Of a stretch of DNA of 64,000 nucleotides, positions 3,659 to 61,400 are shown one piece after another; the stretch's first letter is position 1, and each line of letters opens with the position of its first letter. This stretch comes from Escherichia coli (GTDB lineage Bacteria; Pseudomonadota; Gammaproteobacteria; Enterobacterales; Enterobacteriaceae): NCBI RefSeq assembly GCF_044647545.1, contig NZ_CP172818.1, one strand, 5' to 3'. Position numbers and translations under genes: made by a program. The notes beneath the pieces are model-generated. The model did no database searches and had not been told where the DNA came from. It saw only the letters and a list, made by a program, of their open reading frames with translations.

Positions 3659-3870
3659 GACTCAATCATTTTTTGAACAAATAGATAATTTTTGCGCAAC
3701 GGCAGTGAATACAAGAAAAATCGTTTTGAGCGATTTTATTTATCTTTGATATCGGCTTTATTAATTCATTCAATCAATATATTAGCACTGATTACAATTA
3801 TACCTTTTTATTATTCTGTGTCATGATGCCTCCGTTATTAGCCTTTTATCGTCTTGTTTATATTTTTTGG

Positions 3871-3896
3871 GCCGGCATGATGCCGGCTTTTTTTTA
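3871..3896 (+). terminator. Orphan intrinsic-terminator-like hairpin (GCCGGCAT-GA-TGCCGGC plus T8)
   Basis: Perfect 7-bp GC stem followed by T-run on plus strand; no plus-strand gene upstream. Confidence 0.4.
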
Positions 3897-29527: not shown

Positions 29528-30445
29528 TTAGCTCACCAATTGCCACTGCCTTTTTTCCATCACTGGAGAACTAATCACTGACATTAACAACTCTTTCACT
29601 GCCTGTGCCTGTGGCGATAAGTTCGCTCTGGCGGGTAAATTTAATGACAAAGAGAGACTCATGGAAGGCGTGGTAATGCGTGACATCCACCCATTTACTG
29701 CGCCACATAACGAACGCGCGGCCGATTCGGGTAATACTGCAACGCCCATGCCGCTGGCAATCGCTGCGGTAAGCGTAGCAATAGACTCAATTTCACCAAT
29801 GACTTTTGCCGTGAGCCGCCGTAGGGAAAACGCCTCATCAACACGAAGTCTAACAGCGCTGTAATCACTGGGGAGAAAAAGGTTCATTTGTGCAATAGCA
29901 TTAACATCAACGCTTTGCCCCGGGCAATCTTGAGTTCCTACCAGGAAAAGATCTTCTTTCAGCAAAGCCTGACTGGATACACCAGCCACAGGGGAATGCT
30001 CATAAATCACCGCCATATCGAGTTGTTGATTTATCAGTTTTTCGTTAAGCACTGCACCGCTATTTTCATGAAGATAGATAACGACCTCCGGGAATTCAGC
30101 GCGAACCGCCTGTAATAAGGGCATGGTGATGGATGACGCAGCGGTTCCTGGCGCAAAGCCAATCGAGACTTGCCCCGATAATGCCTGACCAACGTTATGC
30201 ACCGCCAGTTGGGCCTGCTCACACTGACGTAAAATGGCCCGCGCATGGGTATAGAGAATTTTTCCGGCGTCTGTTGGCGTAACGCCCCGTTTTGTGCGAA
30301 TCAAAAGTTGTTGATTTAACTCACCTTCGAGTGTGGCAACCTGCTGGCTGAGCGCTGGTTGTGCGATATGCAATACTTCAGCAGCCTGAGTCAGGCTACC
30401 AATATCTACAATTTTTACGAAGTATTTCAGGCGTCTGAAGTTCAT
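29528..30445 (-). CDS. nac: Nitrogen assimilation control protein (LysR family)
   Basis: Start MNFRRLKYFVKIVDIGSLTQAAEVLHIAQPALSQQ...; track ORF has 10-aa extension. Confidence 0.85.
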   Translation of the reverse strand: MNFRRLKYFVKIVDIGSLTQAAEVLHIAQPALSQQVATLEGELNQQLLIRTKRGVTPTDAGKILYTHARAILRQCEQAQLAVHNVGQALSGQVSIGFAPGTAASSITMPLLQAVRAEFPEVVIYLHENSGAVLNEKLINQQLDMAVIYEHSPVAGVSSQALLKEDLFLVGTQDCPGQSVDVNAIAQMNLFLPSDYSAVRLRVDEAFSLRRLTAKVIGEIESIATLTAAIASGMGVAVLPESAARSLCGAVNGWMSRITTPSMSLSLSLNLPARANLSPQAQAVKELLMSVISSPVMEKRQWQLVS

Positions 30446-30498
30446 GTTGCCTCCGGTTTTTGAGAATCGGCCCAAGTGCCGCCATTACTTACAACCAG

Positions 30499-30515
30499 AT
30501 TGCAAGATGCTTGCC
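30499..30515 (-). promoter_or_regulatory. Sigma-54 promoter (-24/-12) for nac
   Basis: Minus strand reads TGGCAAGCATCTTGCA, matching TGGCAC-N5-TTGCA about 55 bp upstream of nac start. Confidence 0.6.
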
Positions 30516-30770
30516 AGTTTTATTTTGGCGTTGATGTACAAGCTAACCAACTGTCAAATAAGAGATTATGATAGATTCGTCATTGGCTCTTTTCACCAGC
30601 AGTCGCGTTCCCCTGCCCTATAAAAGGAGGGTATGCACCACGATGGTTCATTACCAATAAGATTGAAATCTCATCACTTTGTTGAAATTGACAGCAAACA
30701 AACAAAAAAATGCATTTCACCCTTTGACATCACCATGCACTGCCATTAATATGCGCCCCGTTCACACGAT

Positions 30771-30846
30771 TCCTCTGTAGTTCAGTCGGTAGAACGGCGG
30801 ACTGTTAATCCGTATGTCACTGGTTCGAGTCCAGTCAGAGGAGCCA
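30771..30846 (+). tRNA. asnV: tRNA-Asn (GUU), canonical
   Basis: Exact 76-nt match to asnT sequence. Confidence 0.9.
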
Positions 30847-32989: not shown

Positions 32990-33733
32990 TTATAGCAGTG
33001 CCAGCAGGAAGACCAGTTCACCAAGCTCTATGGCTGCTCCCAGCGTATCGCCGGTTTGCCCGCCCAGCGTACGTTTGAGAAGCTGACCGAGGATGAAAAT
33101 CGCCACCATCGTCACCACCATAGCAGCCACACCATGCATACCCGGCAATAATACGGCAGCAAAAATAGCGGCTAAGCCGAGTGTGACGCAGGTTTGTCGC
33201 CCATCAATTTTGCCAATGAACACATTGCCAAGCCCTTCTTCCCGGGCATAACGATGACGATACATCAATAATGCGGCAGTCCCGCGGCTGATCGCACATG
33301 CTGCCGCCAGCGATGCAAGGATCGGTTCGCCACGCAGAGCCAACTCGCTTAACACCAAAATCTTTGCCAGTACAACAAAAATCAATGCCAGACCGCCGTG
33401 GGTACCTAAACGGCTATCACGCATGATTTCCAACATGCGATCGCGGCTACGTGCAGAAAATACGCCATCACAGGTATCAGCGAGGCCGTCCAGATGGAAT
33501 CCCCCGGTCATCAGCACCAGCACAAGTACGCTAAACAGTGCCGCCAGTGGTGCGCCACACCATGCCTGCAGCACCATGAAGACCAGCCCGCTAATCGCGC
33601 CAAGCAATAATCCAATCAAAGGAAAAGTAATAATACCGCGAGAATAATGCTCGAAATCCAGTCCCTGGGACCAGCGACGCGGTACAGGCAGACGCGTAAT
33701 AAATGAGAGCATCGCCCAAAATAATTTACTCAT
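32990..33733 (-). CDS. cobS: Cobalamin 5'-phosphate synthase
   Basis: Polytopic ORF, internal start [16 protein letters not shown]... Confidence 0.85.
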
Positions 33734-34275
33734 TTGATTTTTACTCCAATACCCGAAACCACCAGCCATACTTCATTTGCCGCAGCGGCCAACTGCTGAT
33801 TTACCCGCCCGGCAATATCACGAAAATGTCGTGCCAGACGACTCTCCGGCACAATCCCCATTCCCACTTCGTTAGTCACTAATACAACCTTTGCGGGGCA
33901 ACGTTGGCAGGCAGCAATCAACGACTGAATCTCAGCATTAATCGCCTGTTCCATCGCCTGATAATCCCATTCATCAGGGTCTTTATCGCCGCCATAATCA
34001 AACAACAGATTAGTCACCATTGTGGTAACGCATTCAAGCAACACAACCTCATTCGGGTTAATGTCTGCATGAATTAATTCATCAAGATGTTGCCAGCGCT
34101 CCACTGTGCGCCAGTGCTCCGGGCGGCCTTGCCGATGATGTTCTATCCGTGCAGCCATCTCATCATCAAGGATTTGCGAGGTAGCGATATACAGAACCTG
34201 TGAAGAGTCCCCAATAAGCGCCTCTGCGTGGCGACTCTTCCCGCTCCGTGCGCCCCCCGTCACCAAAATCATCAT
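33730..34275 (-). CDS. cobU: Adenosylcobinamide kinase / adenosylcobinamide-phosphate guanylyltransferase
   Basis: 181-aa ORF with P-loop GGARSGKS. Confidence 0.85.
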
Positions 34276-35691
34276 ACCGACTCCTGATTCAAATGTATGA
34301 TGGTATTCATTGAACAGAACAATGGATCCCCCACCGTTGCTGACCGCAAAACATTTACGCGATTAATACTGCGCGTAATATAATTAAAAATCCAGCATTC
34401 TCAATCCATTACGAAATAAGATGGCATTACGGAATAGCCAGACTTTCTCGTGTTAACGTCCGACAAAATGCGTCATTGACAGCGGTTTCTGTGGATTGAC
34501 ACATTTCATTCAGATAATGAATTAATGCTACTGCCGGAACAACCAGCAAACGGGCATTGTGTTCTGAAATCCAGGCTATTGATTCAACGTCAGCGACAGA
34601 TCTGCGCTGTAAAAGAACTTGTAAAACAACGTAATAGAATTATCCGGAATGGTGGCCTAGAACACCACAATTTCGCTCTCTCGGTAAGGCACTGTCACAG
34701 CATTCAACAGAATGTGACTTGCCAGATTTATTAGCGCCACCAGATGTTTAACCGGGTAACCACGACCCAGTCGGGGATATATTCCATCTTCTCGCTGACA
34801 TCATCAAGAATAAAAAGGTTTATCACACTCAGAGCAACGTTCTTCAGCAGGCGGGATAATTCTTCAACATTTAGAAGATGTGTTATTAAAGGCATACAAA
34901 CTGGACGTATTGTATTTTCTTTTGGTGGTTGACCTAAGGTAGCAGTTTATCCTGATGCGCTGAGATTTCTGTAATATCTACGTCAACATTCTCCTCGAAT
35001 AGAAAATGCAGCCCCGGCAAGTGATTCACATTTTTTAACAAAACGTTGTTAGCGTGCCATTTTCAGAAGCTCTCCAAGAAAGCGAATTCTTTTCTCAAAT
35101 TCTGCATTCTCAGACACAGCTTTCTACTCCATGGTAATGGCCCAAATACGAAGTTGCTCAGGATCATTAGTGGTGCTGAGAAGTTAAATAACCATGCGGA
35201 GTACCACTCGTCATCACGTATTTATATATCATGAAGCTATTGTTGTGTTTTGTACATCAGTAGATATATTCTGATATACTCCTTTTGCTAGACATAACCT
35301 TTCACCTGCTTGCAAAGCTTCTGTGTTCTGACATTGCCAAATTGTTGCAATTCTGTATCCAGCCTTCTTTCAGTCATAGCTTCGGGCCGCGATAAGACTC
35401 ACTGATCTGACCCTGATTCCTCTTGCAGACTTTATAGACCAATTAAAATGCAGTTTCTGCAGGTCAACGTCTGACCATCATTGTCATCACTCTGGCCATT
35501 AGAGTAACCTTCTGCATTCATCCTTTTGTAAAAAGTTTATATTAGTATCAGCAATTAACCGGACCTGATACTGATATGAGTCTTACCGCATATACGGTCA
35601 ATTTCAGCAATTAATTACATTATCCACGCCAAAGTATTTGTCATCACAATGATGGTACCTTCTTTCAGACACCATTTTTTCAACTCCGTTT

Positions 35692-35732
35692 TCCACGGAC
35701 CGCACTCTTATGTCAAGAGTGCGGTCCGTGGA
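35692..35732. repeat. Perfect 18-bp inverted repeat with 5-nt spacer
   Basis: TCCACGGACCGCACTCTT-atgtc-AAGAGTGCGGTCCGTGGA; no T-run after it. Confidence 0.9.
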
Positions 35733-35883
35733 TACAACCAGAGACCGACTGACACGAGTCAGAGGAAACGACGGATATGTTCAGTCGTAAAATATCTATC
35801 AAAAAACATGATTAAGGTCAAAAATGTTTGATATTTACAATTTATGAAGATGACAATAATTATAGATATATGAGAACATAAAT

Positions 35884-35904
35884 GAAAATAATTATCATTA
35901 CAGC
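35884..35904 (+). promoter_or_regulatory. Fur-box-like sequence upstream of TonB-dependent receptor gene
   Basis: GAAAATAATTATCATTACAGC resembles Fur consensus GATAATGATAATCATTATC. Confidence 0.35.
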
Positions 35905-36254
35905 AATCATTTGTACTTTGTATTAATGAGGGATGAAATGTTATATAATATACCTTGTCGAATTTATATCCTTTCCACTCTGTCATTATGCATTTCTGGG
36001 ATAGTTTCTACTGCAACCGCAACTTCTTCAGAAACAAAAATCAGCAACGAAGAGACGCTCGTCGTGACCACGAATCGTTCGGCAAGCAACCTTTGGGAAA
36101 GCCCGGCGACTATACAGGTTATTGACCAACAAACATTGCAGAACTCCACCAATGCCTCCATAGCCGATAATTTGCAGGACATCCCCGGAGTAGAGATAAC
36201 AGACAACTCCTTGGCAGGCCGTAAACAAATCCGCATTCGTGGCTGGATTTGCCC

Positions 36255-37160
36255 CTATATTTCCAGACATCTGTTATCACTTAACCCATTACAAGCCCGC
36301 TGCCGCAGATATTCCCGTGGCGAGCGATAACCCAGCGCACTATGCGGATGCCATTCGTTATAATGCTCGAACGCCTCTGCAAGGTTCTTTGCTGCCGTTA
36401 ACCCGTCTGGTTTGGGCATGATACTGATGTAGTCACGCTTTATCGTTTTCACGAAGCTCTCTGCTATTCCGTTACTCTCCGGACTCCGCACCGCCGTGTT
36501 CTTCGGTTCAAGTCCCAACATCCGGGCGAACTGGCGTGTTTCATTAGCCCGGTAGCATGAACCATTATCCGTCAGCCACTCCACTGGAGACGACGGAAGA
36601 TCGTTGCCGAAGCGGCGTTCCACCGCTCCCAGCATGACGTCCTGTACTGTTTCACTGTTGAAGCCGCCGGTAGTGACCGCCCAGTGCAGTGCCTCACGAT
36701 CACAGCAGTCCAGCGCGAACGTGACACGCAGTCTCTCTCCGTTATCACAGCAGAACTCGAACCCGTCAGAGCACCATCGCTGATTGCTTTCTTTCACGGC
36801 CACTCTGCCTGTATGTGCCCGTTTCGATGGCGGTACAGCAGGTTTTCGCTCAAGCAACAGCGCATTCTGGCGCATGATCCGGTAAACACGTTTGGCATTG
36901 ATCGCAGGCATACCATCAAGTTCTGCCTGTCTGCGAAGCAGCGCCCATACCCGACGATAACCATACGTTGGCAGCTCTCCGATAACATGGTGTATACGGA
37001 GAAGCACATCCGTATCATCAGTGTGACGACTGCGGCGGCCATCCATCCAGTCATCGGTTCGTCTGAGAATGACGTGCAACTGCGCACGCGACACCCGGAG
37101 ACAACGGCTGACTAAGCTTACTCCCCATCCCCGGGCAATAAGGGCGCGTGCGCTATCCAC
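36255..37160 (-). CDS. insD: IS2 transposase OrfB (DDE integrase domain)
   Basis: 301-aa [33 protein letters not shown]... matches InsD. Confidence 0.9.
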
Positions 37161-37482
37161 TTTTTTGCCCGTCCATATTCAACGGCTTCTTTGAGGAGTT
37201 CATTTTCCATCGTTTTCTTGCCGAGCAGGCGCTGGAGTTCTTTAATCTGCTTCATGGCAGCAGCAAGTTCAGAGGCAGGAACGACCTGTTCTCCGCGGCG
37301 ACAGCAGTAAGACTTCCCCCCTGGATTGCTTGCGCCAGAGAAATAACTGGCTGGCTGCTACACCGTGTTGCCGGGCAACAAGGGAGGCCGTCATTCCCGG
37401 TTCAAAGCTCTGCTGAACAATAGCGCTCTTTTCCTGTGTAGTACGCCGTCTGCGTTTCTCCGGTCCCTAAGACATCAATCAT
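37118..37482 (-). pseudogene. insC: IS2 OrfA (InsC), out of frame in this copy
   Basis: ATG...TAA span is 365 nt (not a multiple of 3); MIDVLG then frame lost; later frames still encode [12 protein letters not shown]...LFLWRKQ and ...[45 protein letters not shown]. Confidence 0.65.
37160..37167 (-). promoter_or_regulatory. IS2 programmed -1 frameshift slippery site (A6G)
   Basis: Minus strand CAAAAAAG at the insC/insD overlap. Confidence 0.6.
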
Positions 37483-37804
37483 CTGTTCTCCAATGACTAA
37501 GTCAAAAACTAGAATATTAAGACTATCACTTATTTAAGTGATATTGGTTGTCTGGAGATTCTGGGGGCTAGTCTAGTGGCGAAGCATCCTCCCGTGTTTT
37601 AATTCTCATTGATGGTCAGGAGGTAACTTATCAGCGCGCCGGAGATAATTATGGTGTGGGACTGTTGATAGATGAGTCTGCGCTGGAGCGTGTTGAGATA
37701 GTGAAAGGTCCATATTCCGTACTGTACGGTTCACAGGCAATTGGCGGTATTGTTAACTTCATCACCAAAAAGGGTGAATCTCCAGACTCCCTATATCACT
37801 TAAA

Positions 37805-38515
37805 TTGATACAACTTTTTAGAGTAGTCATTAGTGAACAGATAATTGATAACTCAGAACCAGTAAAATGCAAAAGACGCACCACGCTGGGAAAATCGCTG
37901 CTATTCAGCAGAGTTTTGTATCGAGAATGGTGGCCAGCCACTTATTGCTCTCGCGTAAGCGGGTACCGTGACATTCTGCCCGAACTGGACCTGGTACTGT
38001 GGCTGATTAAAGCCGATGACCGTGCCCTGTCTGTGGATGAGTATTTCTGGCGACACATCCTGCACCGGGGACATCAGCGGGTACTGTTTGTGGTGATGCA
38101 GGCCGATAAAACGGAGCCCTGCCATGAATGGGATATGGCCGGTATTCAGCCTTCTCCCGCACAGGCACAGAACATTCGCGAAAAAACGGAGGCGGTATTC
38201 CGTCTGTTCCGGCCCGTACATCGGGTTGTTGCCGTATCGGCCCGCACCGGCTGGGAACTGGATACGCTGGTCAGTGCGCTCATGACAGCACTTCCCGACC
38301 ATGCCGCCAGTCCCCTGATGACCCGCCTGCAGGACGAGCTGCGCACGGAATCTGTCCGCGCTCAGGCCCGTGAACAGTTTACCGGTGCGGTGGACCGGAT
38401 ATTTGACACGGCGGAGAGCGCCTGTATTGCCTCTGTTGCACGCACGGTTCTGCGTGCCGTCCGTGACTCGGTGGTCTCTGTTGCCCGCGCGGTATGGAAC
38501 TGGATTTTCTTCTGA
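37805..38515 (+). pseudogene. yeeP: Prophage GTPase-like protein, N-terminally truncated (no P-loop)
   Basis: 236-aa ORF matches the C-terminal part of YeeP-type GTP-binding proteins; no GxxxxGK[ST] motif present. Confidence 0.55.
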
Positions 38516-38609
38516 ACCGGTGGTGACTGATGCCCTCCCTGACTCTGAGTCTGCTCACAAAAGCACTGTTTTCGTTACTGTCTCTCTTGTCCGTGCAATA
38601 GCTCAATAA

Positions 38610-38818
38610 TAGAATAAAACGATCAATATCTATTTTATCGATCGTTTATATCGATCGATAAGCTAATAATAACCTTTGTCAGTAACATGCACAGATACGT
38701 ACAGAAAGACATTCAGGGAACAACAGAACCACAATTCAGAAACTCCCACAGCCGGACCTCCGGCACTGTAACCCTTTACCTGCCGGTATCCACGTTTGTG
38801 GGTACCGGCTTTTTTATT
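38610..38818 (+). ncRNA. isrC: Small RNA IsrC region (5' leader upstream of flu); boundaries approximate
   Basis: Position between yeeP and flu; ends at intrinsic terminator CCGGTATCCAC-gttt-GTGGGTACCGG plus T6 (38780..38818). Confidence 0.4.
38621..38656 (+). promoter_or_regulatory. Three GATC sites (Dam/OxyR phase-variation switch of Ag43)
   Basis: GATC at 38621, 38640 and 38653 within aacGATCaatatctattttatcGATCgtttatatcGATCgataag, about 200 bp upstream of flu. Confidence 0.75.
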
Positions 38819-38842
38819 CACCCTCAATCTAAGGAAAAGCTG

Positions 38843-41800
38843 ATGAAACGACATCTGAATACCTGCTACAGGCTGGTATGGAATCACATGACGGGCGCTT
38901 TCGTGGTTGCCTCCGAACTGGCCCGCGCACGGGGTAAACGTGGCGGTGTGGCGGTTGCACTGTCTCTTGCCGCAGTCACGTCACTCCCGGTGCTGGCTGC
39001 TGACATCGTTGTGCACCCGGGAGAAACCGTGAACGGCGGAACACTGGCAAATCATGACAACCAGATTGTCTTCGGTACGACCAACGGAATGACCATCAGT
39101 ACCGGGCTGGAGTATGGGCCGGATAACGAGGCCAATACCGGCGGGCAATGGGTACAGGATGGCGGAACAGCCAACAAAACGACTGTCACCAGTGGTGGTC
39201 TTCAGAGAGTGAACCCCGGTGGAAGTGTCTCAGACACGGTTATCAGTGCCGGAGGCGGACAGAGCCTTCAGGGACGGGCTGTGAACACCACGCTGAATGG
39301 TGGCGAACAGTGGATGCATGAGGGGGCGATAGCCACAGGAACCGTCATTAATGATAAGGGCTGGCAGGTCGTCAAGCCCGGTACAGTGGCAACGGATACC
39401 GTTGTTAATACCGGGGCGGAAGGGGGACCGGATGCAGAAAACGGTGATACCGGGCAGTTTGTTCGCGGGGATGCCGTACGCACAACCATCAATAAAAACG
39501 GTCGCCAGATTGTGAGAGCTGAAGGAACGGCAAATACCACTGTGGTTTATGCCGGCGGCGACCAGACTGTACATGGTCACGCACTGGATACCACGCTGAA
39601 TGGGGGATACCAGTATGTGCACAACGGCGGTACAGCGTCTGACACTGTTGTGAACAGTGACGGCTGGCAGATTGTCAAAAACGGGGGTGTGGCCGGGAAT
39701 ACCACCGTTAATCAGAAGGGCAGACTGCAGGTGGACGCCGGTGGTACAGCCACGAATGTCACCCTGAAGCAGGGCGGCGCACTGGTTACCAGTACGGCTG
39801 CAACCGTTACCGGCATAAACCGCCTGGGAGCATTCTCTGTTGTGGAGGGTAAAGCTGATAATGTCGTACTGGAAAATGGCGGACGCCTGGATGTGCTGAC
39901 CGGACACACAGCCACTAATACCCGCGTGGATGATGGCGGAACGCTGGATGTCCGCAACGGTGGCACCGCCACCACCGTATCCATGGGAAATGGCGGTGTA
40001 CTGCTGGCCGATTCCGGTGCCGCTGTCAGTGGTACCCGGAGCGACGGAAAGGCATTCAGTATCGGAGGCGGTCAGGCGGATGCCCTGATGCTGGAAAAAG
40101 GCAGTTCATTCACGCTGAACGCCGGTGATACGGCCACGGATACCACGGTAAATGGCGGACTGTTCACCGCCAGGGGCGGCACACTGGCGGGCACCACCAC
40201 GCTGAATAACGGCGCCATACTTACCCTTTCCGGGAAGACGGTGAACAACGATACCCTGACCATCCGTGAAGGCGATGCACTCCTGCAGGGAGGCTCTCTC
40301 ACCGGTAACGGCAGCGTGGAAAAATCAGGAAGTGGCACACTCACTGTCAGCAACACCACACTCACCCAGAAAGCCGTCAACCTGAATGAAGGCACGCTGA
40401 CGCTGAACGACAGTACCGTCACCACGGATGTCATTGCTCAGCGCGGTACAGCCCTGAAGCTGACCGGCAGCACTGTGCTGAACGGTGCCATTGACCCCAC
40501 GAATGTCACTCTCGCCTCCGGTGCCACCTGGAATATCCCCGATAACGCCACGGTGCAGTCGGTGGTGGATGACCTCAGCCATGCCGGACAGATTCATTTC
40601 ACCTCCACCCGCACAGGGAAGTTCGTACCGGCAACCCTGAAAGTGAAAAACCTGAACGGACAGAATGGCACCATCAGCCTGCGTGTACGCCCGGATATGG
40701 CACAGAACAATGCTGACAGACTGGTCATTGACGGCGGCAGGGCAACCGGAAAAACCATCCTGAACCTGGTGAACGCCGGCAACAGTGCGTCGGGGCTGGC
40801 GACCAGCGGTAAGGGTATTCAGGTGGTGGAAGCCATTAACGGTGCCACCACGGAGGAAGGGGCCTTTGTCCAGGGGAACAGGCTGCAGGCCGGTGCCTTT
40901 AACTACTCCCTCAACCGGGACAGTGATGAGAGCTGGTATCTGCGCAGTGAAAATGCTTATCGTGCAGAAGTCCCCCTGTATGCCTCCATGCTGACACAGG
41001 CAATGGACTATGACCGGATTGTGGCAGGCTCCCGCAGCCATCAGACCGGTGTAAATGGTGAAAACAACAGCGTCCGTCTCAGCATTCAGGGCGGTCATCT
41101 CGGTCACGATAACAATGGCGGTATTGCCCGTGGGGCCACGCCGGAAAGCAGCGGCAGCTATGGATTCGTCCGTCTGGAGGGTGACCTGATGAGAACAGAG
41201 GTTGCCGGTATGTCTGTGACCGCGGGGGTATATGGTGCTGCTGGCCATTCTTCCGTTGATGTTAAGGATGATGACGGCTCCCGTGCCGGCACGGTCCGGG
41301 ATGATGCCGGCAGCCTGGGCGGATACCTGAATCTGGTACACACGTCCTCCGGCCTGTGGGCTGACATTGTGGCACAGGGAACCCGCCACAGCATGAAAGC
41401 GTCATCGGACAATAACGACTTCCGCGCCCGGGGCTGGGGCTGGCTGGGCTCACTGGAAACCGGTCTGCCCTTCAGTATCACTGACAACCTGATGCTGGAG
41501 CCACAACTGCAGTATACCTGGCAGGGACTTTCCCTGGATGACGGTAAGGACAACGCCGGTTATGTGAAGTTCGGGCATGGCAGTGCACAACATGTGCGTG
41601 CCGGTTTCCGTCTGGGCAGCCACAACGATATGACCTTTGGCGAAGGCACCTCATCCCGTGCCCCCCTGCGTGACAGTGCAAAACACAGTGTGAGTGAATT
41701 ACCGGTGAACTGGTGGGTACAGCCTTCTGTTATCCGCACCTTCAGCTCCCGGGGAGATATGCGTGTGGGGACTTCCACTGCAGGCAGCGGGATGACGTTC

Positions 41801-41962
41801 TCTCCCTCACAGAATGGCACATCACTGGACCTGCAGGCCGGACTGGAAGCCCGTGTCCGGGAAAATATCACCCTGGGCGTTCAGGCCGGTTATGCCCACA
41901 GCGTCAGCGGCAGCAGCGCTGAAGGGTATAACGGTCAGGCCACACTGAATGTGACCTTCTGA
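38843..41962 (+). CDS. flu: Antigen 43 self-associating autotransporter adhesin
   Basis: 1039-aa ORF from MKRHLNTCYRLVWNHMTGAFVVASELARARG (extended signal peptide), beta-helical passenger repeats, C-terminal beta-barrel ending ...QATLNVTF. Confidence 0.9.
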   Translation: MKRHLNTCYRLVWNHMTGAFVVASELARARGKRGGVAVALSLAAVTSLPVLAADIVVHPGETVNGGTLANHDNQIVFGTTNGMTISTGLEYGPDNEANTGGQWVQDGGTANKTTVTSGGLQRVNPGGSVSDTVISAGGGQSLQGRAVNTTLNGGEQWMHEGAIATGTVINDKGWQVVKPGTVATDTVVNTGAEGGPDAENGDTGQFVRGDAVRTTINKNGRQIVRAEGTANTTVVYAGGDQTVHGHALDTTLNGGYQYVHNGGTASDTVVNSDGWQIVKNGGVAGNTTVNQKGRLQVDAGGTATNVTLKQGGALVTSTAATVTGINRLGAFSVVEGKADNVVLENGGRLDVLTGHTATNTRVDDGGTLDVRNGGTATTVSMGNGGVLLADSGAAVSGTRSDGKAFSIGGGQADALMLEKGSSFTLNAGDTATDTTVNGGLFTARGGTLAGTTTLNNGAILTLSGKTVNNDTLTIREGDALLQGGSLTGNGSVEKSGSGTLTVSNTTLTQKAVNLNEGTLTLNDSTVTTDVIAQRGTALKLTGSTVLNGAIDPTNVTLASGATWNIPDNATVQSVVDDLSHAGQIHFTSTRTGKFVPATLKVKNLNGQNGTISLRVRPDMAQNNADRLVIDGGRATGKTILNLVNAGNSASGLATSGKGIQVVEAINGATTEEGAFVQGNRLQAGAFNYSLNRDSDESWYLRSENAYRAEVPLYASMLTQAMDYDRIVAGSRSHQTGVNGENNSVRLSIQGGHLGHDNNGGIARGATPESSGSYGFVRLEGDLMRTEVAGMSVTAGVYGAAGHSSVDVKDDDGSRAGTVRDDAGSLGGYLNLVHTSSGLWADIVAQGTRHSMKASSDNNDFRARGWGWLGSLETGLPFSITDNLMLEPQLQYTWQGLSLDDGKDNAGYVKFGHGSAQHVRAGFRLGSHNDMTFGEGTSSRAPLRDSAKHSVSELPVNWWVQPSVIRTFSSRGDMRVGTSTAGSGMTFSPSQNGTSLDLQAGLEARVRENITLGVQAGYAHSVSGSSAEGYNGQATLNVTF

Positions 41963-42076
41963 CAGAACCATCGCCTCTCTGTGGTCCCGGTCATCATGAC
42001 CGGGACCCGGACCGGCGCAACGGATCTTCAACGCCACATTCGCTGGCATTAACAATAACATGATATTCATCACGGA

Positions 42077-43615
42077 GTGACTATGTTACAGATAGTCGGC
42101 GCGCTGATCCTGCTGATCGCAGGATTTGCCATTCTTCGCCTTTTGTTCAGAGCATTAATCAGCACGGCTTCTGCGCTGGCAGGGCTCATATTGCTGTGTC
42201 TGTTCGGCCCGGCCTTACTGGCTGGCTATATCACCGAACGCATAACCCGGTTGTTCCATATTCGCTGGCTGGCAGGCGTATTTCTGACGATTGCCGGAAT
42301 GATCATCAGCTTCATGTGGGGACTTGATGGTAAACATATCGCGCTGGAGGCTCACACCTTTGACTCTGTGAAATTTATTCTGACCACCGCTCTCGCCGGT
42401 GGTCTGCTGGCTGTTCCCCTGCAGATCAAAAACATTCAGCAGAACGGGATCACACCAGAAGATATCAGCAAGGAAATTAACGGGTATTACTGCTGTTTTT
42501 ATACTGCCTTTTTCCTTATGGCGTGTTCTGCATGCGCACCATTGATCGCGTTACAGTACGATATTTCACCGTCACTGATGTGGTGGGGCGGGTTGTTGTA
42601 CTGGCTGGCTGCATTAGTGACGCTGCTATGGGCGGCCAGCCAGATCCAGGCGCTGAAAAAACTGACCTGTGCCATCAGCCAGACACTGGAAGAACAACCG
42701 GTGCTCAACAGTAAATCGTGGCTGACCAGTTTGCAAAACGATTACAGCCTTCCTGACTCACTGACGGAGCGCATCTGGCTGACGCTCATTTCTCAACGGA
42801 TTTCCCGGGGAGAGCTGAGGGAATTTGAACTGGCAGACGGAAACTGGTTACTGAACAATGCCTGGTATGAAAGAAACATGGCAGGGTTTAACGAACAGTT
42901 GAAAGAGAACCTGTCATTCACACCTGATGAACTGAAAACGCTCTTCCGGAACCGCCTGAATTTATCACCGGAAGCGAATGACGATTTTCTCGATCGTTGC
43001 CTGGACGGCGGTGACTGGTATCCCTTTTCAGAAGGTCGCCGTTTTGTATCATTCCATCACGTGGATGAGCTTCGTATCTGTGCCTCCTGCGGGCTGACAG
43101 AAGTACATCATGCCCCGGAAAATCATAAGCCGGATCCGGAATGGTACTGCTCCTCTCTTTGTCGCGAAACAGAAACACTGTGTCAGGAAATTTATGAACG
43201 CCCTTACAACAGCTTTATTTCCGATGCAACGGCGAATGGTCTGATTCTCATGAAACTGCCGGAAACCTGGAGTACAAATGAGAAAATGTTTGCTTCCGGA
43301 GGGCAGGGACATGGGTTTGCCGCTGAACGGGGAAACCATATTGTCGACAGAGTCCGTCTGAAAAACGCACGGATCCTCGGTGATAATAATGCCAGAAATG
43401 GAGCAGACAGACTGGTCAGCGGAACAGAAATCCAGACGAAATATTGTTCAACTGCAGCCCGTAGCGTCGGTGCGGCATTCGACGGACAAAACGGACAGTA
43501 TCGTTACATGGGAAATAATGGCCCCATGCAACTGGAAGTCCCCCGTGATCAGTATGCCGGCGCTGTTGAAACCATGAGGAATAAGATCCGCGAAGGTAAA
43601 GTAGAGGAGCGATGA
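42077..43615 (+). CDS. yeeR: Prophage inner-membrane protein of unknown function with Cys-rich C-terminal region
   Basis: 512-aa ORF; N-terminal TM helices; CASCG...CSSLC motif. Confidence 0.75.
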   Translation: MTMLQIVGALILLIAGFAILRLLFRALISTASALAGLILLCLFGPALLAGYITERITRLFHIRWLAGVFLTIAGMIISFMWGLDGKHIALEAHTFDSVKFILTTALAGGLLAVPLQIKNIQQNGITPEDISKEINGYYCCFYTAFFLMACSACAPLIALQYDISPSLMWWGGLLYWLAALVTLLWAASQIQALKKLTCAISQTLEEQPVLNSKSWLTSLQNDYSLPDSLTERIWLTLISQRISRGELREFELADGNWLLNNAWYERNMAGFNEQLKENLSFTPDELKTLFRNRLNLSPEANDDFLDRCLDGGDWYPFSEGRRFVSFHHVDELRICASCGLTEVHHAPENHKPDPEWYCSSLCRETETLCQEIYERPYNSFISDATANGLILMKLPETWSTNEKMFASGGQGHGFAAERGNHIVDRVRLKNARILGDNNARNGADRLVSGTEIQTKYCSTAARSVGAAFDGQNGQYRYMGNNGPMQLEVPRDQYAGAVETMRNKIREGKVEER

Positions 43616-54377: not shown

Positions 54378-54524
54378 GGTCATTCTCCTTTACGGTGATA
54401 ACCGTCGCGTAAGCAAAAAATTGCCCCATTTTTTTGGATTCCTCAGCGACAACAACTGTCGATTTTTAGTAAATATCTATCCGGTACGAAGCCCGGCCTC
54501 TTGGTATGAATGATTGGTTTGAAG

Positions 54525-54561
54525 CAAAAAATAACCGACGCTGATGAAACGTCGGTTTTTA
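54525..54561. terminator. Bidirectional terminator-like hairpin between plaP and yeeY
   Basis: A-run, ACCGACG-ctgatgaa-CGTCGGT, T-run. Confidence 0.5.
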
Positions 54562-54643
54562 GTCATTTTTTGACAGCGGCGCATTGTGCCTAAATGGGGG
54601 GGAAATGACAAGAGAATGAGAGGCTTGTCATAATAATTTTTCT

Positions 54644-56861: not shown

Positions 56862-56912
56862 ATGACACGCGTTCAATTTAAACACCACCATCATCACCAT
56901 CATCCTGACTAG
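56862..56912 (+). CDS. hisL: his operon leader peptide (7 consecutive His codons)
   Basis: ATG ACA CGC GTT CAA TTT AAA CAC CAC CAT CAT CAC CAT CAT CCT GAC TAG = MTRVQFKHHHHHHHPD. Confidence 0.9.
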   Translation: MTRVQFKHHHHHHHPD

Positions 56913-56976
56913 TCTTTCAGGCGATGTGTGCTGGAAGACATTCAGATCTTCCAGTGGTGCATGAACGCATGAGAAA

Positions 56977-57010
56977 GCCCCCGGAAGATCACCTTCCGGG
57001 GGCTTTTTTA
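56977..57010 (+). terminator. his attenuator terminator
   Basis: GCCCCCGGAAG-atcacc-TTCCGGGGGC followed by TTTTTTATT. Confidence 0.85.
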
Positions 57011-57057
57011 TTGCGCGGTTGATAACGGTTCAGACAGGTTTAAAGAGGAATAACAAA

Positions 57058-60334: not shown

Positions 60335-61400
60335 TGAGTCAGAAGTATCTTTTTATCGATCGCGATGGAACCCTGATTAGCGAACCGCCGAGTGATTTTC
60401 AGGTGGACCGTTTTGACAAACTCGCCTTTGAACCGGGCGTGATCCCGGAACTGCTGAAGCTGCAAAAAGCGGGCTACAAACTGGTGATGATCACTAATCA
60501 GGATGGTCTGGGAACACAAAGTTTCCCGCAGGCGGATTTTGATGGACCGCACAACCTGATGATGCAGATCTTCACCTCGCAAGGCGTGCAGTTTGATGAA
60601 GTGCTGATTTGTCCGCACCTGCCCGCAGATGAGTGCGACTGCCGTAAACCGAAAGTAAAACTGGTGGAGCGTTATCTCGCTGAGCAAGCGATGGATCGTG
60701 CCAACAGTTATGTGATTGGCGATCGCGCGACCGATATTCAACTGGCGGAAAACATGGGTATTAATGGTTTACGCTACGACCGCGAAACCCTGAACTGGCC
60801 GATGATTGGCGAGCAACTCACTAAACGAGACCGTTACGCCCACGTAGTGCGCAACACCAAAGAGACGCAAATTGACGTCCAGGTGTGGCTGGATCGTGAA
60901 GGTGGCAGCAAGATTAACACCGGCGTTGGCTTCTTTGATCACATGCTGGATCAGATCGCCACCCACGGCGGTTTCCGCATGGAAATCAACGTCAAAGGCG
61001 ACCTCTATATCGACGATCACCACACCGTCGAAGATACCGGCCTGGCGCTGGGCGAAGCGTTAAAAATTGCCCTCGGCGATAAACGCGGTATTTGTCGCTT
61101 TGGTTTTGTGCTGCCGATGGACGAATGCCTTGCCCGCTGCGCGCTGGATATCTCTGGTCGCCCGCACCTGGAATATAAAGCCGAATTTACCTACCAGCGC
61201 GTGGGCGATCTCAGCACTGAAATGATCGAGCACTTCTTCCGTTCGCTCTCTTACACTATGGGCGTGACGCTACACCTGAAAACCAAAGGTAAAAACGATC
61301 ATCACCGTGTAGAGAGCCTGTTCAAAGCCTTTGGTCGCACCCTGCGCCAGGCCATCCGCGTGGAAGGCGACACCCTGCCCTCGTCAAAAGGAGTGCTGTA

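What the first reader, a model, noticed from the sequence alone, without database searches (positions are those of the whole stretch)
38610..38842. Ag43 phase-variation switch and leader terminator are intact
Three GATC sites (38621, 38640, 38653) lie in the flu regulatory region, consistent with the Dam-methylation/OxyR ON-OFF switch. An 11-bp stem terminator (38780..38818) ends about 25 nt before the flu ATG, consistent with the IsrC small RNA or leader attenuation. This is known biology but confirms the locus is poised for phase variation.
Basis: established knowledge. Interest (0 to 1): 0.3.

Follow-up and report, generated by a model that had tools for sequence, protein, structure and literature searches.

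The report
Ag43 (flu) phase switch and IsrC leader
This is the well-studied on/off switch and terminated leader RNA (IsrC) in front of the E. coli adhesin gene flu/agn43, base-for-base identical to the laboratory strain K-12, so it is real but ordinary, already known biology.

Summary
GATC sites lie at 38621, 38640 and 38653. A strong terminator hairpin (38782-38809, 12 pairs, then T6 at 38810-38815) ends 27 nt before the flu ATG, which is at 38843. Everything from 38523 to 43609 is 100% identical to E. coli K-12 MG1655: promoter, switch, leader, flu and nearly all of yeeR. The K-12 annotated sRNA gene isrC (b4435, 195 nt) maps exactly to 38621-38815, from the G of the first GATC to the last T of the terminator tail. 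Rfam IS102 matches at 252.6 bits against a gathering score of 46. The two best OxyR-consensus matches in the whole 64-kb window overlap the GATC cluster. Across eight diverged Ag43/Cah alleles, the -10 box, the three GATCs, the terminator and the Shine-Dalgarno region stay almost unchanged while the middle of the leader does not. The GATCs lie inside the transcribed leader (+1, +20, +33). IsrC and "leader termination" are the same thing. No leader-peptide or antiterminator structure is visible. "Poised" depends on dam and oxyR, which are not in this window. One side observation: flu itself has no GATC over 3.4 kb, and this is conserved in other alleles.

The parts
37805..38515 (+). 3' remnant of the yeeP-type GTPase (pseudo)gene upstream of flu; its stop codon ends at 38515
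   Evidence: ORF list. K-12 annotates the counterpart as 'GTPase family protein, incomplete' / yeeP pseudogene. This segment is about 3% diverged from K-12.
38587..38615 (+). sigma-70 promoter-like site: -35 TTGTCC (38587-38592), 17-bp spacer, -10 TAGAAT (38610-38615)
   Evidence: Consensus scan, 9 of 12 matches. The -10 box ends 5 nt before the IsrC 5' end. The -10 is nearly invariant in 8 alleles.
38621..38656 (.). Three Dam target sites: GATC-I 38621-38624, GATC-II 38640-38643, GATC-III 38653-38656 (+1, +20, +33 of the leader)
   Evidence: Invariant in all 8 diverged Ag43/Cah alleles. Identical to K-12.
38619..38677 (.). OxyR-binding region: the two best matches to the 37-bp OxyR consensus in the whole window (38619-38655 and 38641-38677, 14 of 20 specified positions each); the first spans all three GATCs
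   Evidence: Consensus scan of all 64 kb on both strands. Overlapping dyad repeats at 38617-38647 and 38635-38661. From my memory of Wallecha 2002, the published DNase footprint is -16 to +42, which would be 38605-38662.
38621..38815 (+). IsrC (IS102) RNA, the terminated 195-nt flu leader transcript
   Evidence: The sequence of K-12 ncRNA isrC b4435 (NC_000913.3 2071317..2071511) is found exactly here. Rfam RF00124 hit at 38619-38822, 252.6 bits, E = 6.6e-50, model positions 1-206 of 206.
38782..38815 (+). Intrinsic terminator: 12-pair stem (38782-38793 with 38798-38809), loop GTTT, T6 tail 38810-38815
   Evidence: -23.5 kcal/mol, z = -6.4. Pair probabilities are at least 0.99 in the full leader. 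The helix is 100% paired in 8 alleles; 11 of 12 pairs are invariant and one switches between U.G and U-A.
38831..38835 (+). Shine-Dalgarno AAGGA, 7 nt before the ATG
   Evidence: Read directly from the sequence. The TAAGGAAA block is invariant in 8 alleles.
38843..41962 (+). flu/agn43 CDS: Ag43 autotransporter adhesin, 1039 aa, intact
   Evidence: The K-12 flu CDS (3120 nt) is found exactly at 38843. There are no internal stops. Annotated agn43/flu in K-12.

Best explanation
This is the K-12 allele of the flu (agn43) regulatory region, a heritable epigenetic ON/OFF switch followed by a terminating leader. Transcription starts from a sigma-70 promoter (-35 at 38587, -10 at 38610) at the G of the first GATC (38621). 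A single OxyR-binding region covers the start site and all three GATCs. In OFF cells OxyR binds the unmethylated site, represses the promoter and shields the GATCs from Dam. In ON cells Dam has methylated the three GATCs, OxyR cannot bind, and transcription proceeds. After each replication the hemimethylated DNA is competed for again, which gives rare switching. Transcripts made in ON cells meet a strong intrinsic terminator at +162 to +195. Those that stop there are the 195-nt IsrC RNA. Those that read through carry the Shine-Dalgarno site and flu, so the terminator sets the Ag43 output per ON cell. Shown here: sequence identity to K-12, the positions of all elements, the IsrC and Rfam match, the OxyR-consensus match, and cross-allele conservation. 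Taken from the literature: OxyR/Dam competition, switching rate, and termination/antitermination. Inferred: read-through is not governed by an alternative RNA fold or a leader peptide. It would instead reflect incomplete termination or a trans-acting factor.
For: Window 38523-43609 is 100% identical to K-12, and the exact K-12 isrC and flu sequences are found at 38621-38815 and 38843-41962. Rfam IS102 matches full length at 252.6 bits against a gathering score of 46. There is a promoter-like site and a terminator. The terminator folds at -23.5 kcal/mol, z = -6.4, and the whole leader has z = -4.3. The top two OxyR-consensus scores of the whole window fall on the GATC cluster. In 8 alleles that differ by up to about 27% in the CDS, the -10 box, the 3 GATCs, the terminator and the SD are essentially invariant, while the mid-leader is unalignable in cah alleles. 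About 1,890 of 5,426 complete E. coli genomes carry a full-length version of the 301-bp region, and about 900 records are at least 99% identical. Literature: the Dam/OxyR mechanism and three GATCs (PMC3764049, PMC4872104, PMC2909390, PMC13337833); IsrC antitermination controls flu (PMC5389530); isrC and flu levels move together (PMC5811629 and PMC13168525).
Against: Nothing in the sequence argues against it. There are limits. Methylation state, OxyR binding, the transcription start and termination efficiency cannot be measured from sequence. dam and oxyR are not in the window. The primary papers (Wallecha 2002, Wallecha 2014, Kaminska 2010) were not available to read, so the start site and footprint coordinates rest on my memory plus the K-12 isrC annotation. 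The structure has no covariation support because the terminator is invariant. The GATC triple is not statistically unusual on its own.
Confidence: 0.95

Rival explanations
1. IsrC is primarily an independent trans-acting small RNA that base-pairs with other mRNAs. Its position in front of flu would be incidental, or the leader would have a dual function.
For: Rfam classes IS102 as 'Gene; sRNA' and K-12 annotates it as ncRNA b4435. It ends in a stable hairpin plus U-tract, like many Hfq-dependent sRNAs. One paper predicts cyoD as a target using IntaRNA only (PMC13168525).
Against: It shares its promoter and 5' end with the flu mRNA, and its level moves with flu. The mid-leader, where a seed region would lie, is the least conserved part and is replaced entirely in cah alleles. 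No validated target was found in the papers read. That same paper calls its function unknown.
Confidence: 0.12
2. The hairpin mainly acts as an insulator. It stops read-through transcription coming from yeeP or IS2 upstream, so that flu expression depends only on the phase switch.
For: It is a strong, orientation-specific intrinsic terminator lying between upstream genes on the same strand and flu. It is conserved in every allele regardless of upstream leader sequence.
Against: It lies downstream of the flu promoter, so it must also act on flu's own transcripts. The annotated IsrC starts at the flu start site, not upstream. This reading is compatible with the main explanation rather than exclusive of it.
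Confidence: 0.15
3. The leader is a classical attenuator of the his/trp type. A translated leader peptide or a ligand-sensing alternative fold would decide between terminator and antiterminator.
For: The leader is long (222 nt) and structured (z = -4.3). Mechanical ORFs exist, starting at 38676 (TTG, 31 aa) and 38687 (ATG, in frame with flu).
Against: No alternative fold competes. Terminator pair probabilities are at least 0.99, and forbidding the terminator costs about 20 kcal/mol. The leader ORFs have no Shine-Dalgarno, and 1-nt and 4-nt indels among alleles break their frames. The only Rfam family matched here is IS102.
Confidence: 0.03
4. The GATC cluster is a chance occurrence and the locus does not phase-vary in this strain.
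For: GATC triples this tight arise about once per 64 kb in shuffles. The trans factors are not visible in the window.
Against: The cis region is identical to one shown experimentally to phase-vary. The three sites are invariant across diverged alleles and coincide with the window's best OxyR-consensus matches. To my knowledge dam and oxyR are present in essentially all wild-type E. coli.
Confidence: 0.02

Closest known systems
E. coli K-12 MG1655 flu (agn43, b2000) regulatory region with isrC (b4435) in cryptic prophage CP4-44
   Same: Identical base for base from 38523 to 43609: promoter, three GATCs, OxyR site, 195-nt IsrC, terminator, SD, the whole flu CDS and nearly all of yeeR. The gene order is the same (IS2, yeeP remnant, isrC, flu, yeeR).
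   Different: Two substitutions lie just after the yeeP stop, at 38519 (G for T) and 38522 (G for C), 65-68 bp upstream of the -35 box. The flanking DNA (yeeP remnant, yeeS onward, chromosomal backbone) is 2-3.5% diverged from K-12, and the K-12 IS5 next to cobU is absent.
Rfam RF00124 IS102 RNA
   Same: Full-length match (model positions 1-206), 252.6 bits against a gathering score of 46. The Rfam consensus hairpins are present, including the GATC-II/III hairpin and the terminator.
   Different: None of note. The Rfam model starts 2 nt upstream of, and ends 7 nt downstream of, the K-12 annotated ends.
Cah / other Ag43-family alleles (e.g. O157:H7 cah, UPEC F11 agn43)
   Same: They share the -10 box, the three GATCs with identical spacing, the terminator hairpin, the SD and the signal-peptide start. 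Their coding regions are also GATC-free.
   Different: The middle of the leader (window 38660-38775) carries indels in agn43 alleles and is unrelated in cah alleles. The passenger domains differ by 10-27% in nucleotides.
Other Dam-dependent phase switches: pap (Lrp/PapI), Salmonella gtr and opvAB (OxyR)
   Same: All use heritable competition between Dam methylation of GATCs and a DNA-binding protein. gtr and opvAB also use OxyR (PMC2909390, PMC4856963).
   Different: agn43 has a single OxyR site acting only as a repressor, placed over the transcription start. pap, gtr and opvAB use two alternative sites upstream of the promoter (PMC2909390). No terminating leader is mentioned for those systems in the passages I read.

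Membership tests
agn43/flu Dam-OxyR phase-variation switch | Three GATC sites clustered within the OxyR-binding region at the promoter | tested here: met
   GATC at 38621, 38640 and 38653. All three lie within the best OxyR-consensus match, 38619-38655.
agn43/flu Dam-OxyR phase-variation switch | OxyR-binding sequence overlapping the promoter and transcription start | tested here: met
   A scan with the 37-bp OxyR consensus gives 14 of 20 matches at 38619-38655 and at 38641-38677, the two highest scores in 64 kb on both strands. Actual binding was not tested.
agn43/flu Dam-OxyR phase-variation switch | Sequence identity to the experimentally characterised K-12 cis region | tested here: met
   100% identity from 38523 onward.
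agn43/flu Dam-OxyR phase-variation switch | Differential methylation of the GATCs in ON and OFF cells, with heritable ON/OFF expression | not testable with these tools
   Needs SMRT, nanopore or MboI/DpnI assays and reporter or aggregation assays. It is established for the identical K-12 sequence in the literature.
agn43/flu Dam-OxyR phase-variation switch | Functional dam and oxyR in the same genome | not testable with these tools
   Neither gene appears in the K-12 annotation of the syntenic yeeJ-to-hisIE stretch, which aligns to window 16742-63551. The first 16.7 kb of the window was not examined, and the rest of the genome is not available.
Rfam RF00124 IS102 / IsrC sRNA | Covariance-model score at or above the gathering threshold, full length | tested here: met
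   252.6 bits against 46, model positions 1-206 of 206, E = 6.6e-50. Exact match to K-12 b4435.
Intrinsic (Rho-independent) terminator | G+C-rich stem-loop immediately followed by a U-tract | tested here: met
   12-pair stem with 8 G-C pairs, 4-nt loop, T6 tail. Energy -23.5 kcal/mol, z = -6.4.
Intrinsic (Rho-independent) terminator | RNA 3' ends generated at the U-tract | not testable with these tools
   The K-12 annotation ends IsrC at the last T of the T6 run. The literature reports termination and antitermination.
Leader-peptide / alternative-hairpin attenuator (his, trp type) | Translated leader ORF and a competing antiterminator structure | tested here: not met
   No competing fold: terminator pair probability is at least 0.99, and the best alternative is 20 kcal/mol worse. 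The leader ORFs lack an SD and are frame-broken by indels in other alleles. For contrast, the window's true His leader is found by Rfam at 56888-57011.
Ag43 self-associating autotransporter | Intact CDS encoding Ag43 | tested here: met
   3120-nt CDS identical to K-12 flu, with no internal stops.

The most novel reading that the evidence does not exclude
The three switch GATCs sit in a conserved GATC desert. There is no GATC for 3,370 bp downstream, covering all of flu, against 8-10 expected under three null models. There are few or none in the GTPase gene upstream. Four other alleles 10-27% diverged in nucleotides show the same pattern. The most novel reading not excluded is that selection keeps this desert as part of the epigenetic switch. 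It could keep SeqA and processive Dam from interfering with the local OxyR/Dam competition. Alternatively, it could leave flu without nearby MutH nicking sites, especially in OFF cells where the only nearby GATCs are unmethylated, which would lower mismatch repair and favour diversification or recombination of the adhesin. GATC-free stretches in mobile elements are known in general (Henaut 1996; PMC4659465), but I found no paper linking one to agn43.
Probability: 0.2. Interest if true: 0.5.

Novelty: already known. Interest (0 to 1): 0.1.

Why it matters
It matters little beyond annotation. The result confirms that this genome carries an intact K-12-type flu locus whose cis elements are all present, so Ag43-mediated aggregation and biofilm phenotypes in this strain should vary between sibling colonies. 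That is a practical warning for phenotyping (PMC3764049). It also shows that 'IsrC' should be annotated as the terminated flu leader, not treated as an unrelated sRNA gene. The only part with research potential is the side observation that flu alleles are kept free of GATC around a GATC-based epigenetic switch.

Tried and rejected
- **Primary papers.** I tried to read Wallecha 2014 (PMC4135670), Wallecha 2002 (PMC135096) and Kaminska 2010 (PMC2838033). None is held, so their details are cited second-hand or from memory.
- **Literature search.** A search for 'IsrC' plus 'flu' with word-start matching returned only clinical trials and was wasted.
- **Covariation.** The test of the leader structure on 8 alleles was uninformative. 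The terminator is invariant, and overall scores do not exceed the shuffles.
- **Antiterminator or leader peptide.** I looked for both and found none.
- **Species scan.** A scan of one genome per species (genome contigs) with the switch pattern gave a single hit, a 1.5-kb contig binned as Collinsella that carries the exact switch pattern next to a segment 96% identical to E. coli yeeP. It gave no information on spread outside E. coli.
- **Viral scan.** A scan of viral contigs with the terminator pattern gave 0 hits.
- **GATC cluster significance.** I tested whether the cluster is significant on its own. It is not.
- **Upstream ATG.** I rejected the idea that the in-frame ATG at 38687 (a 1091-aa ORF) is the real start. 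It has no SD, indels break the frame in other alleles, and K-12 annotates the start at the position matching 38843.

Full report
**Observation**

GATC occurs at 38621, 38640 and 38653. A terminator-like hairpin follows. Its stem is 38782-38793 paired with 38798-38809, giving 12 pairs, of which 11 are Watson-Crick and one is U.G. The loop is GTTT, and the tail is T6 at 38810-38815. On its own the hairpin folds at -23.5 kcal/mol, z = -6.4 against shuffles. The flu start codon is at 38843, so 27 nt separate the T-run from the ATG.

There is one caveat on chance. Three GATCs within 33 bp is not unusual by itself. Dinucleotide-preserving shuffles of the window yield about one such triple per 64 kb, and the window has two. 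The case for function therefore rests on context, not on the count.

**What it is**

The 401 bp around the finding differ from E. coli K-12 at only two bases, 38519 and 38522. Both lie just after the stop codon of the upstream yeeP remnant and 65-68 bp before the -35 box. A base-by-base comparison with K-12 shows zero differences from 38523 to 43609.

The curated K-12 record NC_000913.3 annotates ncRNA isrC (b4435) at 2071317..2071511 and flu (b2000) from 2071539.
- The 195-nt isrC sequence is found exactly at window 38621-38815. That runs from the G of the first GATC to the last T of the terminator tail.
- The 3120-nt K-12 flu CDS is found exactly at 38843-41962.
- Rfam's IS102 model matches 38619-38822 over its full length at 252.6 bits, against a gathering score of 46.
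- A sigma-70-like promoter sits immediately upstream: TTGTCC at 38587, a 17-bp spacer, then TAGAAT ending at 38615.

I scanned the whole window on both strands with the 37-bp OxyR consensus ATAGnTnnnAnCTAT-n7-ATAGnTnnnAnCTAT. The two top scores, 14 of 20 specified positions, are at 38619-38655 and 38641-38677. The first of these contains all three GATCs.

**Comparative evidence**

About 1,890 of 5,426 complete E. coli genomes carry a full-length version of the 301-bp region, and about 900 records are at least 99% identical. A further roughly 2,200 genomes match only the terminator-proximal third.

I aligned the intergenic region of eight alleles: this window, 2011C-3911, Nissle, 1532WA, F11, 1410D004, O157:H7 cah and a cah-like allele. 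Two islands are almost invariant.
- The first island is the -10 box plus the three GATCs, with fixed spacing.
- The second island is the terminator hairpin, the U-tract, the Shine-Dalgarno site and the first codons.

The leader between these islands carries 1-nt and 4-nt indels among agn43 alleles and is unalignable in cah alleles.

The terminator helix is paired in all eight sequences. Eleven of its 12 pairs never vary, and one alternates between U.G and U-A. The loop varies (GTTT, ATTT, ATCT, TTTT). This is conservation, not covariation. The formal covariation measures do not exceed the controls.

**Mechanism**

The Dam/OxyR mechanism is established for the identical K-12 sequence.
- OxyR binds the unmethylated region, represses transcription and blocks Dam.
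- Methylation of the three GATCs prevents OxyR binding and gives the ON state.
- Replication reopens the competition.
- Switching occurs at about 1e-3 per generation (PMC3764049, PMC4872104, PMC2909390, PMC13337833).

From my own memory of Wallecha et al. 2002, which I could not read here, transcription starts at the G of the first GATC and OxyR protects -16 to +42. The K-12 isrC annotation start agrees with that start site. On that numbering the GATCs lie at +1, +20 and +33, the terminator at +162 to +195, and the 5' UTR is 222 nt.

[quoted passage not shown] Another paper lists 'IsrC sRNA (flu gene attenuation)' with isrC and flu changing together (PMC5811629). isrC and flu are also co-regulated in PMC13168525.

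My own folding found no alternative structure that could act as an antiterminator. Terminator pair probabilities are at least 0.99, and forbidding the terminator costs about 20 kcal/mol. The small ORFs in the leader lack ribosome-binding sites and are not frame-conserved. I therefore infer that read-through reflects incomplete termination or a trans-acting factor, not a his/trp-type attenuator. This step is inference.

Four refinements apply.
- The GATCs are inside the transcribed leader.
- IsrC and leader termination are one and the same feature.
- The stem has 12 pairs if the U.G pair is counted.
- 'Poised for phase variation' additionally needs dam and oxyR. They are not in this window, and methylation cannot be read from sequence.

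**Rivals**

- A trans-acting role for IsrC cannot be excluded. It has only an in-silico target prediction behind it, and the least conserved part of the RNA is where a seed region would lie.
- An insulator role against upstream read-through is compatible with the main model rather than exclusive of it.
- Classical attenuation and pure chance are both poorly supported.

**Side observations**

- **GATC desert.** After the third switch GATC the next GATC is at 42023. This 3,370-bp gap is the longest in the window.
  - The flu CDS has 0 GATC under three null models. Dinucleotide shuffles expect 9.7 +/- 2.9, and 0 of 1000 reach zero. Synonymous codon permutation expects 8.5 +/- 2.2. A second-order Markov estimate expects 8.2.
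  - The depletion holds in diverged alleles. Observed GATC counts, with synonymous-permutation expectations, are: O157 cah 0 (6.4), F11 0 (8.5), 1532WA 0 (9.5) and 1410D004 2 (10.3).
  - GATC ranks 1-3 of 256 tetramers by depletion in each allele. The neighbouring gene yeeR has 12 GATCs.
  - GATC-free stretches in mobile elements are known in general (PMC4659465, PMC6602927). I found no link to agn43 in the searchable literature.
- **Mosaic identity to K-12.** The window is syntenic with K-12 from yeeJ to hisF, but identity is patchy.
  - The identical blocks are 16742 to about 18500, about 33500 to 37258, and 38523 to 43609.
  - The stretches between and beyond them are 2-3.5% diverged.
  - The backbone at 22000-30000 is 100% identical to non-K-12 strains such as FDAARGOS_497, MS6198 and ECONIH1.
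  - The IS2 insertion next to yeeP is shared with K-12, while K-12's IS5 is absent.

**Novelty and score**

This is already known biology in its best-studied allele, so interest is low. The only open thread is whether the conserved GATC desert around the switch is functional.

Noticed in passing
window 38657-42022 (flu CDS 38843-41962); also 36904-38620 upstream: GATC desert. There is no GATC for 3,370 bp after the switch, the longest gap in the window. The flu CDS has 0 GATC against 8-10 expected under three null models. Four alleles 10-27% diverged in nucleotides show the same depletion (0, 0, 0 and 2), and GATC ranks among the 1-3 most depleted of 256 tetramers in each. The neighbouring gene yeeR has 12 GATCs. 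GATC-free regions in mobile elements are known in general, but I found no link to agn43.
   Followed up: partly
window 16742-63551: Mosaic relationship to K-12. Blocks of 100% identity (16742 to about 18500, about 33500 to 37258, 38523 to 43609) alternate with 2-3.5% divergence. One breakpoint lies 65 bp upstream of the flu -35 box (38522/38523) and another at the end of yeeR (43610). The backbone at 22000-30000 is 100% identical to non-K-12 strains (FDAARGOS_497, MS6198, ECONIH1). This suggests recombination or gene conversion among paralogous CP4-type islands.
   Followed up: partly
window about 36255-37570 and junction at 34656: An IS2 copy sits at the same place next to the yeeP remnant as in K-12. 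Its last roughly 300 bp (37259-37570) differ from the K-12 copy by 21 substitutions and indels. The IS5 that K-12 carries beside cobU is absent here.
   Followed up: no
window 38687-41962: A mechanical 1091-aa ORF arises because an ATG at 38687 in the leader is in frame with flu and no stop intervenes. It has no Shine-Dalgarno, and indels in other alleles break the frame, so it is an artefact and not an N-terminal extension.
   Followed up: yes
window 38617-38661: Two overlapping DNA dyads are built from the CGATCG units: 38617-38647, which the terminator scan reports as a minus-strand 'terminator', and 38635-38661, which is the first hairpin of the Rfam IS102 model. Only the self-complementary CGATCG cores are invariant across alleles. 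The RNA hairpin may therefore be a by-product of the OxyR and Dam sites.
   Followed up: partly
window 60892-60954: This is another dense GATC cluster, with four sites within 63 bp (starts span 60892-60954). By synteny it lies inside the his operon, at about hisB. It shows that tight GATC clusters occur without a known switch.
   Followed up: no
L016 (JAIJJM010000733.1, 1560 bp): The only species-representative genome contig matching the switch pattern is labelled 'MAG: Collinsella sp.'. It carries the exact GATC switch pattern plus a segment 96% identical to the window's yeeP. It is probably an E. coli contig mis-binned into that MAG.
   Followed up: partly
window 3805-3894, 54524-54598, 56888-57011, 12734-30843: Other Rfam hits in the window: rseX sRNA, STnc240, the His operon leader, and five tRNA hits. 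Three of these (26535, 28356, 30771) line up with the K-12 tRNA-Asn genes. All are as expected for this chromosomal region.
   Followed up: no
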